A stretch of 64,000 bases of DNA from Candidatus Woesearchaeota archaeon (GTDB lineage Archaea > Nanobdellota > Nanobdellia > Pacearchaeales > GW2011-AR1), in assembly GCA_964495875.1 (NCBI GenBank), contig CAZBWB010000001.1, positions 315,122-379,121 on the forward strand, read 5' to 3'. Shown piece by piece: positions 11,334 through 34,196 of the stretch. Numbering within the stretch: the stretch's first letter is position 1; every line of letters starts with the position of its first letter. Made by a program: the position numbers and the translations under genes. The notes under the pieces are model-generated. The model ran no database searches and was not told where the DNA came from. It saw nothing but the letters and a program-made list of their open reading frames with translations.

Positions 11334-11927
11334 ATGTTATCACCAGAACAAACTGCTCAGATAAAAGAGAAAATAATCAACCAGATAAATTCCAGTTTTC
11401 CAGAAGATAAGAAACCTGGAGCAAAAAGTCAGATTGAAGCGATGAATTCTGAGCAATTAGAGGAATTTCTAAAACAGAATAATATTATGAAAGAACAGCA
11501 ATGTGTATTCTGCTCTATTATTTCAGGAGATGTTAATTCATATATTCTTGAAAAGGAGAAAGATGCAATTGCTATTCTTGAAATCAATCCAATATCTCAG
11601 GGGCACGTACTGATAGTTCCAAAAAAACACTCTCAGGAATTTTCCCCACAAACCAAAAGATTCGCAAGAAAAATTTCAAAATTATTAAAAGAAAAATTAA
11701 AACCAAAAGACATACTAATATCTCAGTCCAGTTTATTTGGACATGGAATAATAAATATCATCCCGGTTTACAAAGACGAAACAAATGAATCAGAAAGACA
11801 TAAGGCAAATCCAGAAGAACTTGAAAGAATTTTGAAAAAAATCTTAGAAAAAATCAAAAAACCAATTAAAAAACCTAAAGTAAAAAAAATAAAAGAAAAA
11901 CTTTGGTTACCAAAAAGAATTCCATAA
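11334..11927 (+). CDS. HIT-like protein with degenerate histidine triad
   Basis: The HIT fold signature CVFCSIISGD ... AIAILEINPISQGHVLIVPKKH is present. The expected HxHxHxx position reads GHGIINIIP, so only one His remains. There is also an extra ~50-aa N-terminal extension and a Lys-rich tail. Confidence 0.6.
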   Translation: MLSPEQTAQIKEKIINQINSSFPEDKKPGAKSQIEAMNSEQLEEFLKQNNIMKEQQCVFCSIISGDVNSYILEKEKDAIAILEINPISQGHVLIVPKKHSQEFSPQTKRFARKISKLLKEKLKPKDILISQSSLFGHGIINIIPVYKDETNESERHKANPEELERILKKILEKIKKPIKKPKVKKIKEKLWLPKRIP

Positions 11928-12752
11928 TTTAATTCCCAAAAGATATAACAAAAACAAAATTATCATACTCATCAAAAAGACTGGAGTAAAGGGAATTCCT
12001 TGTTTTATCTTAATCTTCCTGTATCTTTTTTTTATTGCTCTAATGTCCTTTTTACTGAGTCCCTCCCATGTTGTTTTAATCTTCTTTTTTCCAATCTTCA
12101 GATCATTATAAAGCCAATCTCCCTCACTTAACTGATTTGTCTTAACTTCCTTAACCATGCAAGATTCATCAACTGCTTTTGCAAAAATATAAAGATAAGA
12201 TGAAATAAAAATCAAAACCCCAAAAACAAAAATCATGGATTCAATAAAACCCAAAAGCATTATTATTAATCCACTGCATATCATAAAATAAAAAAGTTTT
12301 TTATTTTTTTTAAATTGAACACTGAATTCTTTTTTAAATCTTTTAAAATTCCTTGCAGCCAGAACTCCACTGACTATAAAACTGTAAACAGCTCCCAAAA
12401 AAAAGAAGATTAGAAAAAATATAAGAAAAAATTGAATATTTTCAATAATGTTTCCATAAACAGGTAAAACAGCTCCGAGAGCAATTAGTAGTTTTGCATC
12501 TCCTCCTGCAAACATTCTTCCGTAGTATAACAAATTCCCAAGAATAAAAAATATTGCTAAACCAATGAGTCCCTGATAAAAAAAAGAAAAATTTTCCAAG
12601 GAAAACAAAGAATAAAAGAATCTAAAACCTATTGCAAAGATTATCAGAGAAAAACTCAGCCAGTTCGCAATCTCTCTGCTTCTCAAATCCTGTATTGTTG
12701 CAAATATAATCCACAATAAAGCAAGACTCCATAAAAAAATCACCCCAAACAT
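11907..12752 (-). CDS. A24-family prepilin/preflagellin peptidase (PibD/FlaK-like)
   Basis: Polytopic membrane protein with the two aspartyl motifs IQDLRSREIANW and FAGGDAKLLIALG, plus an extra C-terminal soluble/TM extension. Confidence 0.75.
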   Translation of the reverse strand: MFGVIFLWSLALLWIIFATIQDLRSREIANWLSFSLIIFAIGFRFFYSLFSLENFSFFYQGLIGLAIFFILGNLLYYGRMFAGGDAKLLIALGAVLPVYGNIIENIQFFLIFFLIFFFLGAVYSFIVSGVLAARNFKRFKKEFSVQFKKNKKLFYFMICSGLIIMLLGFIESMIFVFGVLIFISSYLYIFAKAVDESCMVKEVKTNQLSEGDWLYNDLKIGKKKIKTTWEGLSKKDIRAIKKRYRKIKIKQGIPFTPVFLMSMIILFLLYLLGIKLWNSFW

Positions 12753-12946
12753 AATTAAGATTGGAAAAAGTAATTTATAAAACTATTTTGTCTTGTTTTT
12801 TAGTTTTCGTGTCCTCGCACTCCCGCCCTTTTTATAAGGATATTTTTTCTTTTCTCTTTTTTTATTTTTCCTCTTATTTCTTTTTTGAGAAAATTCATAT
12901 TCCATAAAACATTAAATAAGAATCAATTTAAATAAATTTAGAATTA

Positions 12947-13336
12947 TTATCCTTCAGATTCTTCTTCAGATCCTTCTCCTTCAGATCCCTCTTCTTCAAC
13001 ACATAAACCAGGACACTCCCTTATTCCATAATTTTCATAATCAACATTAGTTGCAAAAAAGTTACAGCTGTTTTTGACAGATTTCACACCACCAGGCAAA
13101 CCACTCACTTTTAATTCTCTTTCTTTAGTACAAAAATCATAAACATTTTGCGTTGAACAGGCAACCTCACACTGAGTTGCAATTGCATCAACATTCTCCG
13201 TAGACAACCAAGGAGCAATTTTCCCCCAGCCAACAGTAAAACCAACTATAAGCACAGCTAAAACAACTATTCCAAGAATAATCAGTATAATAGCATTAGT
13301 ACTCAACCCTTGACCTCTTTTATCCAACATAATCAT
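12947..13336 (-). CDS. Type IV pilin-like protein (class III signal peptide), Cys-rich, acidic tail
   Basis: The N-terminus MIMLDKRG|QGLSTNAIILIILGIVVLAVLIVGF has a basic stretch, Gly, Gln, then a ~22-residue hydrophobic helix. The globular part has 6 Cys and ends in a GSEGEGSEEESEG tail. Confidence 0.6.
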   Translation of the reverse strand: MIMLDKRGQGLSTNAIILIILGIVVLAVLIVGFTVGWGKIAPWLSTENVDAIATQCEVACSTQNVYDFCTKERELKVSGLPGGVKSVKNSCNFFATNVDYENYGIRECPGLCVEEEGSEGEGSEEESEG

Positions 13337-13369
13337 TTTAAGACTAATCTATTTATAAAAGTTTTTATT

Positions 13370-13687
13370 TTATCCTGGAAGATAATATTCAACTGAAATA
13401 TCTTTCGTAGTAATGTTGAGATATCTTCCTGAAGAATCTTCTTCTATTTTTAAAATCTTTTCTATCTCTTCCTCACTAAACTCTCCGATATTTTGATAAA
13501 AATAATATTTTTCTATGTTTGAATTTATTTCTTCTATTACATCTGTCCCGTAAAAATCCCTGTGTATTTTGTTGTCCGAAACAATAAAACTTATGATTGC
13601 GAATGCACAGACAGCAAAAACCCCAATTACTAAAATTGTTATCGGAATGTCTCCCCCCTTATTTTTAATTATTTTTGATTCCATCAT
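13370..13687 (-). CDS. Pilin-like small protein
   Basis: N-terminus KIIKNKGG|DIPITILVIGVFAVCAFAIISFIV. The start overlaps the upstream stop by 4 nt. Confidence 0.45.
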   Translation of the reverse strand: MMESKIIKNKGGDIPITILVIGVFAVCAFAIISFIVSDNKIHRDFYGTDVIEEINSNIEKYYFYQNIGEFSEEEIEKILKIEEDSSGRYLNITTKDISVEYYLPG

Positions 13688-14172
13688 TTACGCAAAAATA
13701 AAGCCAGATTTTTAGTTTTAAAATTATCGGGAATTTCTCCAAAATAAATTCTCTCGTCAATAGTATAATCAGTAGGAAGCGGATACTGATAATAATCCTG
13801 TCTAACAGAACCTGCAGAAAGTTTTGCTCCCTCTCCTCTAACGTCTAACCAAATACCTCTAATATAATCATCACTATAAAGACCTTTAAAGATTTTTGAA
13901 CTCAGAGGAGCATTGAATTCATTTAAATCACCACTCTCGTTTATTTGCTCAAATACCCTTTCTCCAGAATCATCTTTAGTCAATAAATATGCTGTCAAAG
14001 ATTTTGCAGGAATTAAATCAGAAGAATCCCTTGCTATTGCATCTATCTTAACTCTTCTTTTATTCAACAATGAAACTCCAAGTATAGATAAAACCAAAAG
14101 AGTAATCACTATCAGGGTTGCAACTATCCATGTTATAGTTTCTGGTATCTGTGCTTTTCTATTAATCGGCAT
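13684..14172 (-). CDS. Pilin-like protein
   Basis: N-terminus MPINRKA|QIPETITWIVATLIVITLLVLSILGV. It is translationally coupled on both sides. Confidence 0.5.
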   Translation of the reverse strand: MPINRKAQIPETITWIVATLIVITLLVLSILGVSLLNKRRVKIDAIARDSSDLIPAKSLTAYLLTKDDSGERVFEQINESGDLNEFNAPLSSKIFKGLYSDDYIRGIWLDVRGEGAKLSAGSVRQDYYQYPLPTDYTIDERIYFGEIPDNFKTKNLALFLRK

Positions 14173-32990: not shown

Positions 32991-33047
32991 ATCTTCTCAC
33001 CTCCTTTCATATTTTTAAACATATTTATAACTTCAAACATTTTTGAA

Positions 33048-33461
33048 TTATTCGTTACATCCTCCGCAATTTTCACTAACTTCTTCAGAAACTTGCTCTT
33101 TACCAAATAATCTTAAAAAGAAATTACTAATTCCATTAATTAAATTCGTAAAAACATTATCAGATTCTTTGTCGTCTTTTGATTTTTCCTCTGCCTCAAT
33201 CTCTGCCCAAGTTTTATCAACAACTTTTCTCTTAGAAATCTCAACATCACTATCTCTCCATTCGCTCCAGTTTAATCCTTTTGGTCTTAAACTTGTCTCA
33301 TATTTAACTCCATCACCATAACCATAGATTATTTTTCCATCAATAATCTTGTATTTCAAATCCATGCTATCATCATAGCTATATGGATTTGCAGAAATAA
33401 AAGAAAGCATACTTATGATAATCAAACATAATAACACACTTAAAATAACCCCTTTTTTCAT
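33048..33461 (-). CDS. Small secreted protein
   Basis: Signal peptide MKKGVILSVLLCLIIISMLSFISA. Charged mature part ending in CGGCNE. Confidence 0.45.
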   Translation of the reverse strand: MKKGVILSVLLCLIIISMLSFISANPYSYDDSMDLKYKIIDGKIIYGYGDGVKYETSLRPKGLNWSEWRDSDVEISKRKVVDKTWAEIEAEEKSKDDKESDNVFTNLINGISNFFLRLFGKEQVSEEVSENCGGCNE

Positions 33462-33529
33462 AAATTAATTAATGGAATTATCATTTAAAAAATCTCCTCA
33501 ATTTTGATATTAATCCCAAAACTCTCATA

Positions 33530-33829
33530 TCAAGACCAAATTAATCTAATATTTTTAAAAGAAAGACATTTAGAACATGTCTCGCAAAAAATCCCGCCGT
33601 CAGAAGAACCTGTAATAAAACATTTGGAATTATTCTGACATTCTCCCAATATTTCCAAGTTTGCACATTCTTCACTATCAATCTCCTCAAATATCCATCT
33701 CCCACATTTTTTGTAACAAGAATTAAATTTATTAAGAAACAAAAAACTGAAAAAAATAATAAACAAGATAAGAGTAACTAACAAACAAATCCCAATAATC
33801 TTTAAAAGCAACTTAATATCTTTGTCCAT
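33530..33829 (-). CDS. Small TM-anchored Cys-rich protein
   Basis: An N-terminal TM helix followed by about 10 Cys in 60 residues. Confidence 0.4.
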   Translation of the reverse strand: MDKDIKLLLKIIGICLLVTLILFIIFFSFLFLNKFNSCYKKCGRWIFEEIDSEECANLEILGECQNNSKCFITGSSDGGIFCETCSKCLSFKNIRLIWS

Positions 33830-33830
33830 T

Positions 33831-34196
33831 TTATGTTAAATCAACACATACAGGAATTTTTCTTAAAAAAAATGAAATGATAAAAATAAAAACATCAAAA
33901 ATAGGGATAATTTTTCCAAGAAAAATTTTATATTTAATTGAATAAATAAAACTCCAGATAATAAACCCCAAGAAAATTGGAAAAACTAAAAATAAAAAAG
34001 GATTAAACAAAGGATTTTTACAACTTACATCAAGAATAAAATAAACACAAAGCCACAAAACAGGAAGAAAAATCACACTAATAACAGAAAACAATTTTTT
34101 TCTGCTAAATTTTTTTCCAACCTTGACGACATCAATTACAAATAGAAAAAAGGACAAAAGAAAACTTGCAAAAATTAATAAATACAAAACTTCCAT
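33831..34196 (-). CDS. Small polytopic membrane protein
   Basis: Four hydrophobic segments. Its stop is 1 nt from the next gene's start. Confidence 0.4.
   Translation of the reverse strand: MEVLYLLIFASFLLSFFLFVIDVVKVGKKFSRKKLFSVISVIFLPVLWLCVYFILDVSCKNPLFNPFLFLVFPIFLGFIIWSFIYSIKYKIFLGKIIPIFDVFIFIISFFLRKIPVCVDLT

What the first reader, a model, noticed from the sequence alone, without database searches (positions are those of the whole stretch)
11907..34196. ~22 kb co-directional locus coupling type IV pilus-like machinery to secreted lytic enzymes: candidate contact/cell-envelope-breaching apparatus
All but one of about 27 ORFs are on the minus strand. Many have overlapping or abutting start and stop codons (13684/13687, 14162/14172, 15360/15385, 17605/17608, 18418, 24841/24863, 27660/27666), which implies operonic co-expression.

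The locus combines four groups of genes:
- **Assembly machinery:** an A24 prepilin peptidase, a GspE/FlaI-type ATPase with a ~380-aa N-terminal extension, and a 721-aa FlaJ/TadC-like platform protein.
- **Pilin-like proteins:** at least ten ORFs whose N-termini look like class III (prepilin) signal peptides (basic residues, G/A, then a ~20-residue hydrophobic helix). Most carry Cys-rich ectodomains.
- **Secreted hydrolases:** a murein-type amidase, a C25 gingipain-like peptidase, and an S8 subtilase with a beta-helix/Ig tail.
- **Other surface proteins:** a tail-fibre-like repeat protein and small Cys-rich secreted proteins.

I see no archaellum accessory genes (FlaC-H), archaellin-type sequences or chemotaxis genes. 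My inference is that this is an attachment and lysis organelle of an episymbiotic or predatory small-genome archaeon, not a motility structure. I am not aware of a characterised archaeal pilus locus carrying this enzyme payload.
Basis: partly seen in the sequence, partly recalled or inferred. Interest (0 to 1): 0.85.

Follow-up and report, generated by a model that had tools for sequence, protein, structure and literature searches.

The report
Archaeal pilus locus with wall-cutting pilins
A tiny symbiotic archaeon (Pacearchaeota) carries a conserved pilus-building gene cluster in which one pilus subunit has a bacterial-cell-wall-cutting enzyme built into it, which suggests these archaea use a filament to breach bacterial walls; the neighbouring secreted proteases are a strain-specific add-on.

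Summary
At 11907-34196 there are about 25 ORFs, all but one on the minus strand. Pfam confirms the A24 peptidase, T2SSE ATPase, Amidase_2, C25 and S8 calls.

The locus is two things, not one:
- **Core, 11907-23480.** This is a type IV filament (TFF) cluster conserved across Pacearchaeota. It encodes an ATPase (median 77% identity over 84 loci) and a 721-aa platform protein that is T2SSF only by transitive homology. It also encodes a 49-aa Flp-like pilin, seven families with a conserved [KR][KR][GA] class III site, and the peptidase.
- **Island, 23553-34196.** This 10.7-kb block (C25, S8, tail-fibre-like protein) sits at a junction that is under 600 nt in 68 of 78 relatives.

The real coupling is the amidase. 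[quoted passage not shown] In other species a lytic-transglycosylase (SLT) domain is grafted onto at least three pilin families of the same locus. In all, 12 of 52 species-level loci carry such a pilin.

Best reading: a filament displaying peptidoglycan hydrolases against bacterial walls. This is a new variant of modular pilins. Function is inferred.

The parts
11907..12752 (-). Class III signal (prepilin) peptidase, A24 family, 281 aa. Catalytic Asp22 and the GGD motif (Asp85) are present.
   Evidence: PF01478 8e-13. NCBIfam FlaK 7.6e-12, below that model's cutoff. Motifs. Found at the end of the pilin cluster in 33 of 84 loci, the ones that reach that far.
12783..12905 (-). 40-aa very basic ORF just upstream of the peptidase gene. 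Function unknown.
   Evidence: ORFs of 37-40 aa occupy the same position in L002, L087, L088 and L091.
12947..13336 (-). Pilin-like protein p129. Predicted site KRG|QGLSTNAIILIILG. Six Cys in the mature part and an acidic tail.
   Evidence: Orthologs in 35 loci share a conserved [KR]G|QG(L/M)ST motif behind leaders of variable length.
13370..13687 (-). Pilin-like protein p105. Predicted site NKG|GDIPITILVIGV. This family carries an SLT domain in five other species.
   Evidence: L021, L030, L047, L051, L074.
13684..14172 (-). Pilin-like protein p162. Predicted site RKA|QIPETITWIVAT.
   Evidence: Conserved K[GA]|Q(V/I)xET motif in orthologs.
14162..15385 (-). Modular pilin, 407 aa. A class III-like N-terminus (NKKG|DKIISVYWFAILF) and pilin module carry an Amidase_2 domain (about aa 150-368) inserted between beta-strands 2 and 3. 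Residues H163, E267, H343 and D353 are present.
   Evidence: PF01510 2.5e-17. Best solved-structure match is AmpDh2, 2e-9. The insertion was mapped against the 163-197-aa orthologs. Catalytic residues are invariant in 43 homologs. AF2 model pLDDT 83. Same slot in L086, L087, L090 and L091.
15360..15776 (-). Pilin-like protein p138. Predicted site KKG|TILIGNVIFIVLNL. This family carries a C-terminal SLT domain in L032 and L091.
15873..16745 (+). Lipoprotein-like gene (lipobox LFPGC) on the opposite strand. It is a non-conserved insertion in the pilin cluster.
   Evidence: Weak homologs in only 2 of 84 loci. Absent in L086 and L087.
16742..17500 (-). Pilin-like protein p252, Cys-rich. Predicted site RKG|EITSHQLVIIIILIV.
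   Evidence: Found in 54 loci. Conserved KG|E(L/I)TTQQIV motif.
17501..17608 (-). 35-aa single-TM ORF that overlaps the p148 stop codon.
   Evidence: ORFs of 33-41 aa occupy the same position in L002 and L091.
17605..18051 (-). Pilin-like protein p148, Cys-rich. Predicted site KKA|FLLGEETLKIILAV.
   Evidence: Found in 51 loci. Conserved KG|FLLAEETLKI motif.
18053..18418 (-). Leaderless pilin-like or TM protein p121 (MAELTTGQLIKIILG).
   Evidence: The N-terminal roughly 45 aa are conserved in 29 loci. There is no [KR][GA] leader.
18418..18567 (-). 49-aa Flp/Epd-like pilin with no globular domain (MKKRG|IVADYLPWLLIAIAVLVIV). Candidate major filament subunit.
   Evidence: Conserved immediately after the platform gene in at least 38 of 65 loci, consensus KKG|IISEYLPWLLIA. 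No Pfam hit.
18598..20763 (-). Polytopic platform protein, 721 aa, about 9-10 TM segments and two cytoplasmic regions. FlaJ/TadC/T2SSF family by transitive homology.
   Evidence: No direct Pfam, NCBIfam or PDB hit. 1047 representative clusters in the exhaustive search. 14 of 37 diverse homologs hit PF00482, best 3e-10. Weak GspF match, E=0.14. TM profile.
20821..21141 (-). 106-aa multi-TM protein between the ATPase and platform genes.
   Evidence: Homologs in 8 loci, all close relatives.
21192..23480 (-). TFF assembly ATPase, 762 aa. Walker A 469-476, Walker B at 492, GEVR at 549, TIH at 575. Lineage-specific N-terminal extension of about 215 aa.
   Evidence: PF00437 1.2e-13. NCBIfam TadA 4e-36 and FlaI 8e-35. 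PDB afGspE 2e-25, CpaF 6e-24, FlaI 3e-13. The 120 best database hits are 77-87% identical. Motifs.
23553..34196 (-). Variable 10.7-kb island holding nine ORFs:
- p436, a Sec-signal/Ig/TM protein (23553-24863)
- C25-like peptidase with H648 and C674 (24841-27666)
- archaeal-type pilin KRG|MNPVIG (27660-28163)
- tail-fibre-like p358 (28227-29303)
- S8 subtilase with D146, H197, S371 plus a beta-helix (29339-32524)
- p152, a duplicated S8 propeptide (32532-32990)
- p137 (33048-33461)
- p99 (33530-33829)
- p121b (33831-34196)
   Evidence: Pfam results; catalytic motifs. The gap between the conserved neighbour gene o129 and the ATPase is under 600 nt in 68 of 78 loci, against 10.76 kb here. Partial sharing only with L006 (S8 block), L012 (p99, p121b), and L002-4, L031, L072 and L082 (C25+p436, at other positions).

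Best explanation
The core region 11907-23480 encodes a Tad/Epd-like type IV filament (TFF) machine that is conserved throughout Pacearchaeota.

**Proposed mechanism.**
- The A24 peptidase cleaves the class III leaders after the conserved [KR][KR][GA] site.
- The hexameric ATPase and the FlaJ/TadC-like platform polymerise a small Flp-like pilin (49 aa) into a filament.
- Seven minor-pilin families prime or cap that filament.
- One minor pilin (14162-15385) is a modular pilin. An N-acetylmuramoyl-L-alanine amidase domain is inserted into its beta-sheet, so the enzyme is displayed on the filament (probably at its tip) or on a short pseudopilus.
- Because archaea of this group are not known to make murein, the likely substrate is the peptidoglycan of bacterial cells. 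The filament would then attach to a bacterial host or prey and locally open its wall.
- In other Pacearchaeota the same job appears to be done by an SLT lytic-transglycosylase domain grafted onto other pilins of the locus, or by an SLT-LysM gene next to the ATPase gene.

**The island.** The upstream 10.7-kb block (S8, C25, tail-fibre-like protein) is a strain-specific island of surface and secreted proteins inserted at a variable junction. It is not part of the conserved machine.

**Shown versus inferred.**
- Shown: gene content, conservation, domain architecture and intact catalytic residues.
- Inferred: leader processing, incorporation into a filament, the bacterial target and the biological role.
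For: **Machine components.**

**Conserved gene order in 84 loci.**
- ATPase found in 84 loci, median identity 77%
- Platform in 75 loci, median 71%
- Pilin families in 19-54 loci each, median 35-59%
- Many loci are truncated by contig ends

**Class III hallmark.** Orthologs have leaders of variable length ahead of an invariant [KR][GA] site, followed by a conserved mature N-terminus and a hydrophobic helix. This holds in seven families and in the 49-aa pilin.

**Amidase-pilin.**
- The usual ortholog is 163-197 aa (42 of 47 loci).
- The amidase lies between the 'GNxNLK' segment and the C-terminal hairpin 'RSFYVLD..Y.I.ILS'.
- H163, E267, H343 and D353 are invariant in 43 homologs that are 40-55% identical to the window protein.
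- The AF2 model (pLDDT 83.4) shows an N-terminal helix, strands 108-117 and 125-135, then the amidase at 159-372, then strands 378-384 and 390-399.
- About 46 database clusters share the whole architecture, all with PF01510; the few that are named are Nanoarchaeota-type, bar one partial entry labelled Patescibacteria.
- It occupies the same slot in L086, L087, L090 and L091.

**Independent grafts of a second peptidoglycan hydrolase.**
- An SLT domain with the MQES, GLMQ and YNGW motifs is fused to the p105 family (L021, L030, L047, L051, L074).
- It is fused to the p138 family (L032, L091) and to the slot-5 family (L020, L033, L076).
- It is fused to an unassigned pilin in L054.
- Support: PF01464 on the L020 insert at 3.6e-5, a precomputed PF01464 hit on L091, phmmer E values of 1e-9 to 1e-51 for eight of these, and the L033 and L076 inserts placed by alignment and jackhmmer only.

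**Stand-alone SLT(+LysM) genes** sit at the ATPase junction in L020, L033, L045 and L049.

**Frequency.** 12 of 52 species-level loci that cover part of the pilin cluster carry a hydrolase-pilin.

**Literature.**
- Pacearchaeota are enriched in the large-cell size fraction, suggesting strong host attachment (He et al., 10.1101/2020.05.14.094862).
- Pacearchaeota and Woesearchaeota SLT proteins have been proposed to target bacterial walls (PMC8204110).
- Archaeal peptidoglycan hydrolases kill bacteria experimentally (PMC12352652).
Against: - No experiment or expression data exists for any component.
- None of the pilin-like ORFs matches any Pfam pilin family, even at E=10. Class III status rests on motif conservation and context.
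- The platform model was poor (pLDDT 57). Foldseek on the amidase-pilin recovered only a weak Amidase_2 match (4ols_A, probability 0.85).
- Most species (about 77% of covered loci) have no hydrolase-pilin, so wall cutting is not the universal function of the machine.
- The SLT grafts share closely related domains and some sit in one ATPase clade. The number of truly independent events is smaller than the number of loci.
- Absence of murein in Pacearchaeota was not tested here; only 64 kb was available.
- The assignment of L033 and L076 inserts as SLT rests on motifs, alignment to L020 and an iterated jackhmmer search. Pfam, PDB and hhalign gave nothing significant.
Confidence: 0.55

Rival explanations
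1. The whole 22 kb is one integrated attachment-and-lysis organelle, in which the pilus machinery exports or presents the S8 subtilase, the C25 peptidase and the tail-fibre-like protein as its payload.
For: - Co-directional, tightly packed genes with overlapping stops and starts.
- The catalytic residues of S8 and C25 are intact.
- Both S8 orthologs (window and L006) begin with K-R-G followed by a long hydrophobic segment, so class III processing is not excluded.
- An archaeal-type pilin gene (27660-28163) lies inside the island.
- C25+p436 pairs recur within 10 kb of the ATPase in six independent loci, directly adjacent to it in L072.
- The same junction holds other surface proteins in other species, for example a lectin-pilin in L062.
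Against: - The island is absent at this junction in 68 of 78 relatives.
- The S8 block is shared only with L006.
- C25+p436 sits beyond the helicase gene in the close relative L002.
- Relatives with the amidase-pilin (L086, L087, L090) have no island.
- C25 and p436 have ordinary Sec-type signals.
Confidence: 0.12
2. A bindosome-like or pseudopilus display system for scavenging. The class III proteins stay anchored at the cell surface. The hydrolase-pilins digest free murein fragments or debris from dead bacteria for nutrients, with no contact-dependent attack.
For: - Archaeal class III proteins include substrate-binding proteins proposed to 'functionalise' TFF machines (preprint 10.64898/2026.04.22.720090).
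- Pacearchaeota have minimal metabolism and are proposed to scavenge.
- There are many minor pilins and only a tiny putative major pilin.
Against: - The ATPase resembles BasE only weakly (66 bits against a cutoff of 1000). It is closer to TadA/CpaF, afGspE and FlaI.
- A conserved Flp-like pilin argues for a real filament.
- No ABC transporter genes sit in or beside the locus.
Confidence: 0.18
3. Self-directed hydrolases. As with VirB1, BfpH or FlgJ in bacteria, the amidase and SLT modules open the organism's own wall so the filament can be assembled.
For: In bacteria, specialised lytic transglycosylases are classically encoded inside type III, type IV secretion and type IV pilus loci for exactly this purpose (my own background knowledge).
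Against: - Murein is not known in Pacearchaeota. SLT is described as normally absent from archaea and as targeting bacterial walls (PMC8204110).
- A library search for Pacearchaeota plus peptidoglycan biosynthesis found nothing relevant.
- Only about a quarter of species have a hydrolase-pilin, whereas an assembly factor should be universal.
Confidence: 0.08
4. A DNA-uptake or general adhesion pilus whose core function has nothing to do with lysis. The hydrolase modules are lineage-specific accessories of minor importance.
For: - The machine is conserved in all relatives, while hydrolase modules occur in a minority.
- In ultrasmall CPR bacteria, type IV pili are linked to competence and host binding (PMC9938205; the PMC11623550 abstract, listed).
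Against: - A peptidoglycan hydrolase has been grafted repeatedly (two enzyme classes, at least four pilin scaffolds), and the catalytic residues are under purifying selection. That argues the modules matter where present.
- No ComEC or DprA-type genes are in the window regions scanned.
Confidence: 0.07

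Closest known systems
Modular (bimodular) minor type IV pilins: Streptococcus sanguinis PilB (vWA module) and PilC (lectin module), and T2SS GspK (domain inserted in the pilin beta-sheet) (PMC8179133)
   Same: - A small pilin module with a class III N-terminus carries a grafted functional module.
- It is encoded among the minor pilins of the assembly locus.
- As in GspK, the extra domain here is inserted within the beta-sheet rather than appended.
- L062 even has a lectin-module pilin like PilC.
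   Different: - The system is archaeal.
- The pilin modules match no known pilin profile.
- The grafted modules are peptidoglycan hydrolases (Amidase_2, SLT). These were not among the modules named in the passages of PMC8179133 read here, and the literature searches run here found no such fusion.
Archaeal Epd pilus / bacterial Tad (Flp) pilus ('System 1' of the 2026 archaeal TFF classification, 10.64898/2026.04.22.720090)
   Same: - A TadA/CpaF-like ATPase.
- A dedicated A24 peptidase.
- A very small pilin with no globular domain and an E-Y motif near the mature N-terminus.
- Many additional pilin-like genes in one operon-like cluster.
- System 1 is reported in some DPANN archaea.
   Different: - One 721-aa platform gene instead of the two that define System 1 and TadB/TadC.
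- The ATPase has a roughly 215-aa N-terminal extension.
- No Flp_Fap or Class_IIIsignal profile hit.
- Phylogenetic placement was not done.
Specialised peptidoglycan hydrolases of bacterial envelope-spanning machines (VirB1, BfpH, R64 PilT, FlgJ, EtgA)
   Same: An SLT- or amidase-type enzyme is encoded inside the locus of a filament or secretion machine. This comparison rests on my own background knowledge.
   Different: Those enzymes are separate proteins that cut the producer's own sacculus. Here the enzyme is part of a pilin, and the producer is an archaeon with no known murein.
Virion-associated peptidoglycan hydrolases at phage tail tips (e.g. T7 gp16, T4 gp5, phi29 gp13)
   Same: A wall-cutting domain carried at the end of a thin filamentous or tubular structure, to open a bacterial wall locally at the point of contact. 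This is a functional analogy from my own background knowledge.
   Different: There is no homology of the carrier. A pilus assembled by an ATPase and platform is not a pre-assembled tail.
Secreted archaeal peptidoglycan hydrolases (Woldo and Danwoldo of Halogranum; large SLT proteins of Woesearchaeota and Pacearchaeota) (PMC12352652, PMC8204110)
   Same: Archaeal enzymes of bacterial origin aimed at bacterial murein. Nanoarchaeota are noted as rich in them.
   Different: Those are Sec/Tat-secreted, or giant surface proteins, with wall-binding domains. The ones here lack a binding domain, carry class III-type N-termini and are embedded in pilins of a TFF locus.

Membership tests
Type IV filament (TFF) superfamily, archaeal type | Secretion ATPase of the GspE/PilB/FlaI/TadA family with Walker A, Walker B, Asp and His boxes | tested here: met
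   PF00437 1.2e-13. NCBIfam TadA 4e-36 and FlaI 8e-35. PDB afGspE 2e-25 and CpaF 6e-24. Motifs at 469, 492, 549 and 575.
Type IV filament (TFF) superfamily, archaeal type | Polytopic platform protein of the T2SSF/FlaJ/TadC family | tested here: met
   Met only by transitive homology. The window protein has no direct hit. 14 of 37 full-length homologs (E of 7e-59 or better) hit PF00482, best 3e-10. About 9-10 TM segments and two cytoplasmic regions.
Type IV filament (TFF) superfamily, archaeal type | Class III signal peptidase (A24, two catalytic Asp, GxGD) | tested here: met
   PF01478 8e-13. Asp22 and GGD85 present.
Type IV filament (TFF) superfamily, archaeal type | Pilins with class III signal peptides | tested here: inconclusive
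   - The motif and its conservation pattern are met in eight families.
- 13 of 25 locus ORFs match a simple rule, against 0 of 39 outside.
- No hit to any Pfam pilin family even at E=10.
- FlaFind could not be run and cleavage is untested.
Archaellum | Archaellins (PF01917) and accessory genes FlaF/G/H and FlaX or FlaC/D/E | tested here: not met
   No such Pfam or NCBIfam hits among the locus ORFs. The FlaI model scored 120 bits against a cutoff of 550.
Epd / Tad-like pilus (System 1) | Two platform genes (TadB/TadC-like) | tested here: not met
   A single 721-aa platform gene, both in the window and in relatives.
Epd / Tad-like pilus (System 1) | Small major pilin lacking a globular domain (Flp/EpdE-like) | tested here: inconclusive
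   A 49-aa ORF with KKRG|IVADY... is conserved after the platform gene in at least 38 of 65 loci. It has no Flp_Fap hit.
Ups / Aap / bindosome (Bas) systems of Sulfolobales | System-specific ATPase clade and accessory genes (UpsX, AapX, BasABC, sugar-binding proteins) | tested here: not met
   BasE model scored 66 bits against a cutoff of 1000. No binding-protein or ABC transporter genes in or beside the locus. UpsE and AapE phylogeny was not run.
Amidase_2 (PF01510) N-acetylmuramoyl-L-alanine amidases (AmpD/AmiD/PGRP/T7 lysozyme) | Zn ligands His-His-Asp plus the catalytic Glu/Lys | tested here: met
   - PF01510 2.5e-17.
- AmpDh2 2e-9, with IGH..DPGP aligned.
- H163, E267, H343 and D353 invariant, and K351 at least 90% conserved, in 43 sequences.
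- Enzyme activity not testable here.
Modular pilins (pilin module plus grafted functional module) | N-terminal pilin module (alpha1 helix plus beta-sheet) sharing one polypeptide with an unrelated functional domain | tested here: met
   - Orthologs without the insert are 163-197 aa.
- Both flanks of the insert align to them.
- AF2 secondary-structure order is helix, two strands, amidase, two strands.
- Incorporation into a filament is not testable here.
SLT / GH23 lytic transglycosylases (for the pilin grafts in relatives) | Catalytic E-S motif, GLMQ motif and AYNxG motif; PF01464 match | tested here: met
   - L020 insert hits PF01464 at 3.6e-5, 23.7 bits, above the gathering score of 21.3.
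- L091 has a precomputed PF01464 hit.
- The motifs are present in the phmmer-matched pilin-fused domains; L032 lacks YNG and L091 reads GLMRI.
- hhalign against E. coli Slt70 was not significant.
- L033 and L076 are inconclusive on their own.

The most novel reading that the evidence does not exclude
Pacearchaeota, a DPANN lineage with no cultivated member and no known host, use a conserved and largely unannotated type IV filament. Its minor pilins have repeatedly been converted into carriers of murein hydrolases (Amidase_2 or SLT). This makes a pilus that enzymatically drills through the peptidoglycan of bacterial cells. It would be the first molecular device pointing to bacterial hosts or prey for DPANN archaea, and the first enzyme-tipped pilus used for inter-domain attack.
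Probability: 0.35. Interest if true: 0.85.

Novelty: new variant of a known kind. Interest (0 to 1): 0.66.

Why it matters
**Host question.** All cultivated DPANN archaea live on other archaea. Whether the very abundant Pacearchaeota and Woesearchaeota live on bacteria is an open question, argued so far only from stray SLT genes (PMC8204110, PMC9723730).

A murein hydrolase built into a subunit of a conserved pilus machine gives that question a concrete, testable handle:
- Two enzyme classes and at least four pilin scaffolds are involved.
- About a quarter of the sampled species carry such a pilin.
- Catalytic residues are conserved.

**Annotation gap.** DPANN type IV pilus components have been reported as 'missing' (He et al. 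preprint). Here only the ATPase and peptidase are recognisable by standard profiles. The platform and all pilins are invisible to Pfam.

**Concept.** This extends the 'modular pilin' idea to archaea and to lytic enzymes.

**Practical use.** The [KR][KR][GA] pilin families and the platform family could be turned into profiles for annotating thousands of metagenome-assembled genomes.

Tried and rejected
1. Direct Pfam, NCBIfam and PDB assignment of the 721-aa protein found nothing. It was resolved through distant homologs.
2. AF2 on the platform with a shallow alignment (79% mean identity) gave pLDDT 57 and was not used.
3. Foldseek with the full-length amidase-pilin model gave only a weak Amidase_2 hit, 4ols_A, and noise.
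4. A PDB profile search and hhalign against E. coli Slt70 for the SLT inserts were not significant. Pfam on the L033 and L076 inserts alone found nothing.
5. An exact-sequence lookup of the window ATPase failed.
6. No tRNA or Rfam hits in the window.
7. The giant 3169-aa ORF at 41095-50604 was checked for an SLT domain like the large SLT proteins of PMC8204110. None was found, only lectin and Ig domains.
8. Archaellum, Ups/Aap and bindosome assignments were considered and rejected; see the membership tests.
9. The idea that the island is compositionally foreign was considered. GC is 0.28-0.35 throughout, with no clear difference.
10. Pfam pilin families for the nine small ORFs found nothing at E up to 10.

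Full report
**What is there**

The window is archaeal. It encodes RadA, aIF2-alpha, RPA, a split Hef helicase/nuclease and DNA polymerase D, and it is low in GC at about 32%. Homologs of its pilus ATPase are named Pacearchaeota, Nanoarchaeota or 'Woesearchaeota' in public records.

Between 11907 and 34196 there are 21 minus-strand ORFs of at least 99 aa. There are also three small conserved minus-strand ORFs (49, 35 and 40 aa) and one plus-strand ORF.

- A24 peptidase, 8e-13
- T2SSE ATPase, 1.2e-13
- Amidase_2, 2.5e-17
- C25, 1.8e-12
- S8, 9e-46, plus a NosD beta-helix

Catalytic motifs are intact in all of them.

The 721-aa 'platform' has no direct profile or PDB match. An exhaustive search found a family of 1047 representative clusters. 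Of 37 diverse full-length members, 14 hit PF00482 T2SSF, best 3e-10. With about 9-10 TM segments and two cytoplasmic regions, it is a FlaJ/TadC-type platform.

The ATPase aligns with afGspE from residue 219, and with CpaF and FlaI. Its specific N-terminal extension is therefore about 215 aa, not about 380.

**Two units, not one**

I fetched 80 species-level loci around ATPase relatives and ten further loci via exact-protein lookups. I then mapped every window protein onto the first 84 of these (L001-L085). The conserved order is:

o129 (divergent, 34240-34629) | ATPase | (TM protein) | platform | 49-aa pilin | p121 | p148 | 35-aa ORF | p252 | p138 | slot-5 pilin | p162 | p105 | p129 | 40-aa ORF | A24 peptidase | HIT

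- The ATPase has a median identity of 77% and the platform 71%, the highest medians among proteins found in many loci.
- The gap between o129 and the ATPase is under 600 nt in 68 of 78 loci. In the window it is 10.76 kb.
- The block 23553-34196 is therefore an insertion. It holds p436, C25, an archaeal-type pilin, tail-fibre-like p358, S8, a duplicated S8 propeptide (p152), p137, p99 and p121b.
- The S8 part is shared only with L006. p99 and p121b are shared only with L012.
- The C25+p436 pair occurs near the ATPase in six independent loci but at different positions. In the close relative L002 it lies beyond the helicase gene.
- Relatives that share the amidase-pilin (L086, L087, L090) have no island.
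- In other species the same junction holds other surface proteins. These include a pilin-like protein with a ConA-type lectin module in L062 and a 1040-aa Ig-domain protein in L076.

**Class III signals**

In orthologs of seven families the leader varies from 3 to more than 30 residues. It always ends in [KR][KR][GA], followed by a family-specific conserved mature N-terminus and a hydrophobic helix.

The 49-aa ORF directly after the platform gene behaves the same way. Its consensus is KKG|IISEYLPWLLIA, seen in at least 38 of 65 loci. It has no globular domain, like Flp/Epd major pilins.

A crude rule finds 13 of 25 locus ORFs and 0 of 39 elsewhere in the window. That rule also picks up three ambiguous or Sec-like N-termini and one false hit.

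No pilin-like ORF hits any Pfam pilin family, even at E=10. This probably explains statements that type IV pilus components are missing from DPANN genomes.

**The real coupling to lysis**

The slot-5 protein is normally 163-197 aa (42 of 47 loci). In the window it is 407 aa. An Amidase_2 domain (about aa 150-368) replaces a Cys-Cys loop between the 'GNxNLK' segment and the C-terminal hairpin 'RSFYVLD...Y.I.ILS'.

- About 46 database clusters have this whole architecture. All are annotated PF01510; only a handful carry a source name (Nanoarchaeota-type, plus one partial entry labelled Patescibacteria).
- In 43 aligned members that are 40-55% identical to the window protein, H163, E267, H343 and D353 are invariant.
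- The AF2 model (pLDDT 83.4) gives an N-terminal helix, two strands, the amidase, then two strands. This is a pilin module with an inserted enzyme, as GspK has an inserted domain (PMC8179133).
- The nearest non-archaeal amidase domains are bacterial, from proteins with PG_binding_1 or SH3_3 domains.

**Second enzyme, other scaffolds**

In other species a lytic-transglycosylase (SLT/GH23) domain is fused to other pilins of the same locus. It carries the MQES, GLMQ and YNGW motifs.
- p105 family: L021, L030, L047, L051, L074
- p138 family: L032, L091
- Slot-5 family, at a different insertion site: L020, L033, L076
- An unassigned pilin: L054

The support is as follows:
- Pfam PF01464 on the L020 insert at 3.6e-5, above the gathering score.
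- A precomputed PF01464 hit on the L091 protein.
- Non-iterative phmmer E values of 1e-9 to 1e-51 for eight of the grafts.
- The more divergent L033 and L076 inserts rest on alignment, shared motifs and an iterated jackhmmer search.

L091 has both an SLT-pilin and the amidase-pilin. Four loci of one clade carry a stand-alone SLT(+LysM) gene exactly at the o129|ATPase junction.

In all, 12 of 52 species-level loci that cover part of the pilin cluster have a hydrolase-pilin, and 14 of 80 have some peptidoglycan-hydrolase link. Both figures are lower bounds, because many contigs are truncated.

**Interpretation**

The core is a Tad/Epd-like type IV filament machine of Pacearchaeota. In a substantial minority of lineages, including this one, a minor pilin displays a murein hydrolase.

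Murein is not known in these archaea (PMC8204110; nothing relevant). The simplest target is therefore bacterial peptidoglycan. This fits three published points:
- Pacearchaeota cells partition with large-cell size fractions.
- Their SLT proteins have been proposed to target bacterial walls.
- Archaeal peptidoglycan hydrolases kill bacteria experimentally.

Leader processing, filament incorporation, the target and the role are all inferred.

The main rivals are surface display for scavenging, self-wall remodelling and a generic adhesion or DNA-uptake pilus. None is excluded.

**Comparison with known systems**

- It meets the TFF definition in ATPase, platform (by transitivity) and peptidase. 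The pilins are supported by motif and context only.
- It is not an archaellum, because there are no archaellins or accessory genes. It is not a bindosome either.
- It resembles Epd/Tad in ATPase affinity, the tiny pilin and the dedicated peptidase. It fails the two-platform-gene feature of 'System 1'.
- The amidase-pilin fits the modular-pilin concept.
- Neither the 2026 census of archaeal TFF systems nor the 2025 survey of archaeal peptidoglycan hydrolases mentions hydrolase-bearing class III proteins. A full-text search for the two terms together returned nothing.

I therefore rate it a new variant of a known kind, of real interest to DPANN and pilus specialists, but entirely computational so far.

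Noticed in passing
window 32186-32417 and 32655-32886: A 232-nt direct repeat at 97% identity. The N-terminal propeptide region of the S8 subtilase (about aa 40-113) is duplicated in the upstream 152-aa ORF (32532-32990), which ends in a TM anchor. L006 has the same two-gene arrangement, but its copies are only 39-44% identical to the window's p152. This suggests recent gene conversion in the window.
   Followed up: partly
window 41095-50604 (-): A giant 3169-aa ORF with Laminin_G_3 (ConA-like lectin, 5.5e-18) and bacterial Ig-like domains. No SLT domain was detected. It is a probable surface adhesin, like the giant proteins reported for Pacearchaeota and Woesearchaeota.
   Followed up: partly
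window 3854-6166 (-): A 770-aa ORF containing an intein with a LAGLIDADG homing endonuclease. One ATPase homolog elsewhere (P0115, 1261 aa) also carries an intein.
   Followed up: no
window 34240-34629 (+): A roughly 110-130-aa gene of unknown function (o129). It is divergently oriented and directly adjacent to the ATPase gene in 78 of 84 loci (median 62% identity) and has no Pfam hit. It could be a regulator or an accessory factor of the pilus locus.
   Followed up: partly
window 12783-12905 (-): A 40-aa extremely basic ORF (Lys/Arg-rich), conserved in position just upstream of the A24 peptidase gene in L002, L087, L088 and L091. Function unknown.
   Followed up: no
L062 8044-9429: At the variable o129|ATPase junction of another species there is a 461-aa protein with an archaeal pilin-type N-terminus (SEKG|LSTIIMTMILILVSL) and a Laminin_G_3/ConA-like lectin module (4.8e-13). 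It is an archaeal counterpart of the S. sanguinis PilC lectin pilin.
   Followed up: partly
L039 (DATKUW010000085.1); P0226; P0436: Contigs or proteins carrying this clearly Pacearchaeota-type locus are labelled 'Bacillota bacterium', 'Candidatus Paceibacterota bacterium' and 'Patescibacteria group bacterium' in public records. These are probably binning or labelling errors.
   Followed up: no
L091 7899-10032: One genome carries both an SLT-bearing p138-family pilin and the Amidase_2 pilin, two genes apart in the same cluster. Together they would form a two-enzyme wall-cutting set: glycan strand and peptide stem.
   Followed up: yes
L019 17058-18780: The slot-5 pilin is duplicated here. A short copy is followed by the amidase-bearing copy. 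This may be a snapshot of how the modular version arose.
   Followed up: no
window 15873-16745 (+): The only plus-strand gene in the locus. It encodes a lipoprotein-like protein (lipobox LFPGC) and is inserted between p138 and p252. It is absent in close relatives, with weak homologs only in L006 and L035.
   Followed up: partly
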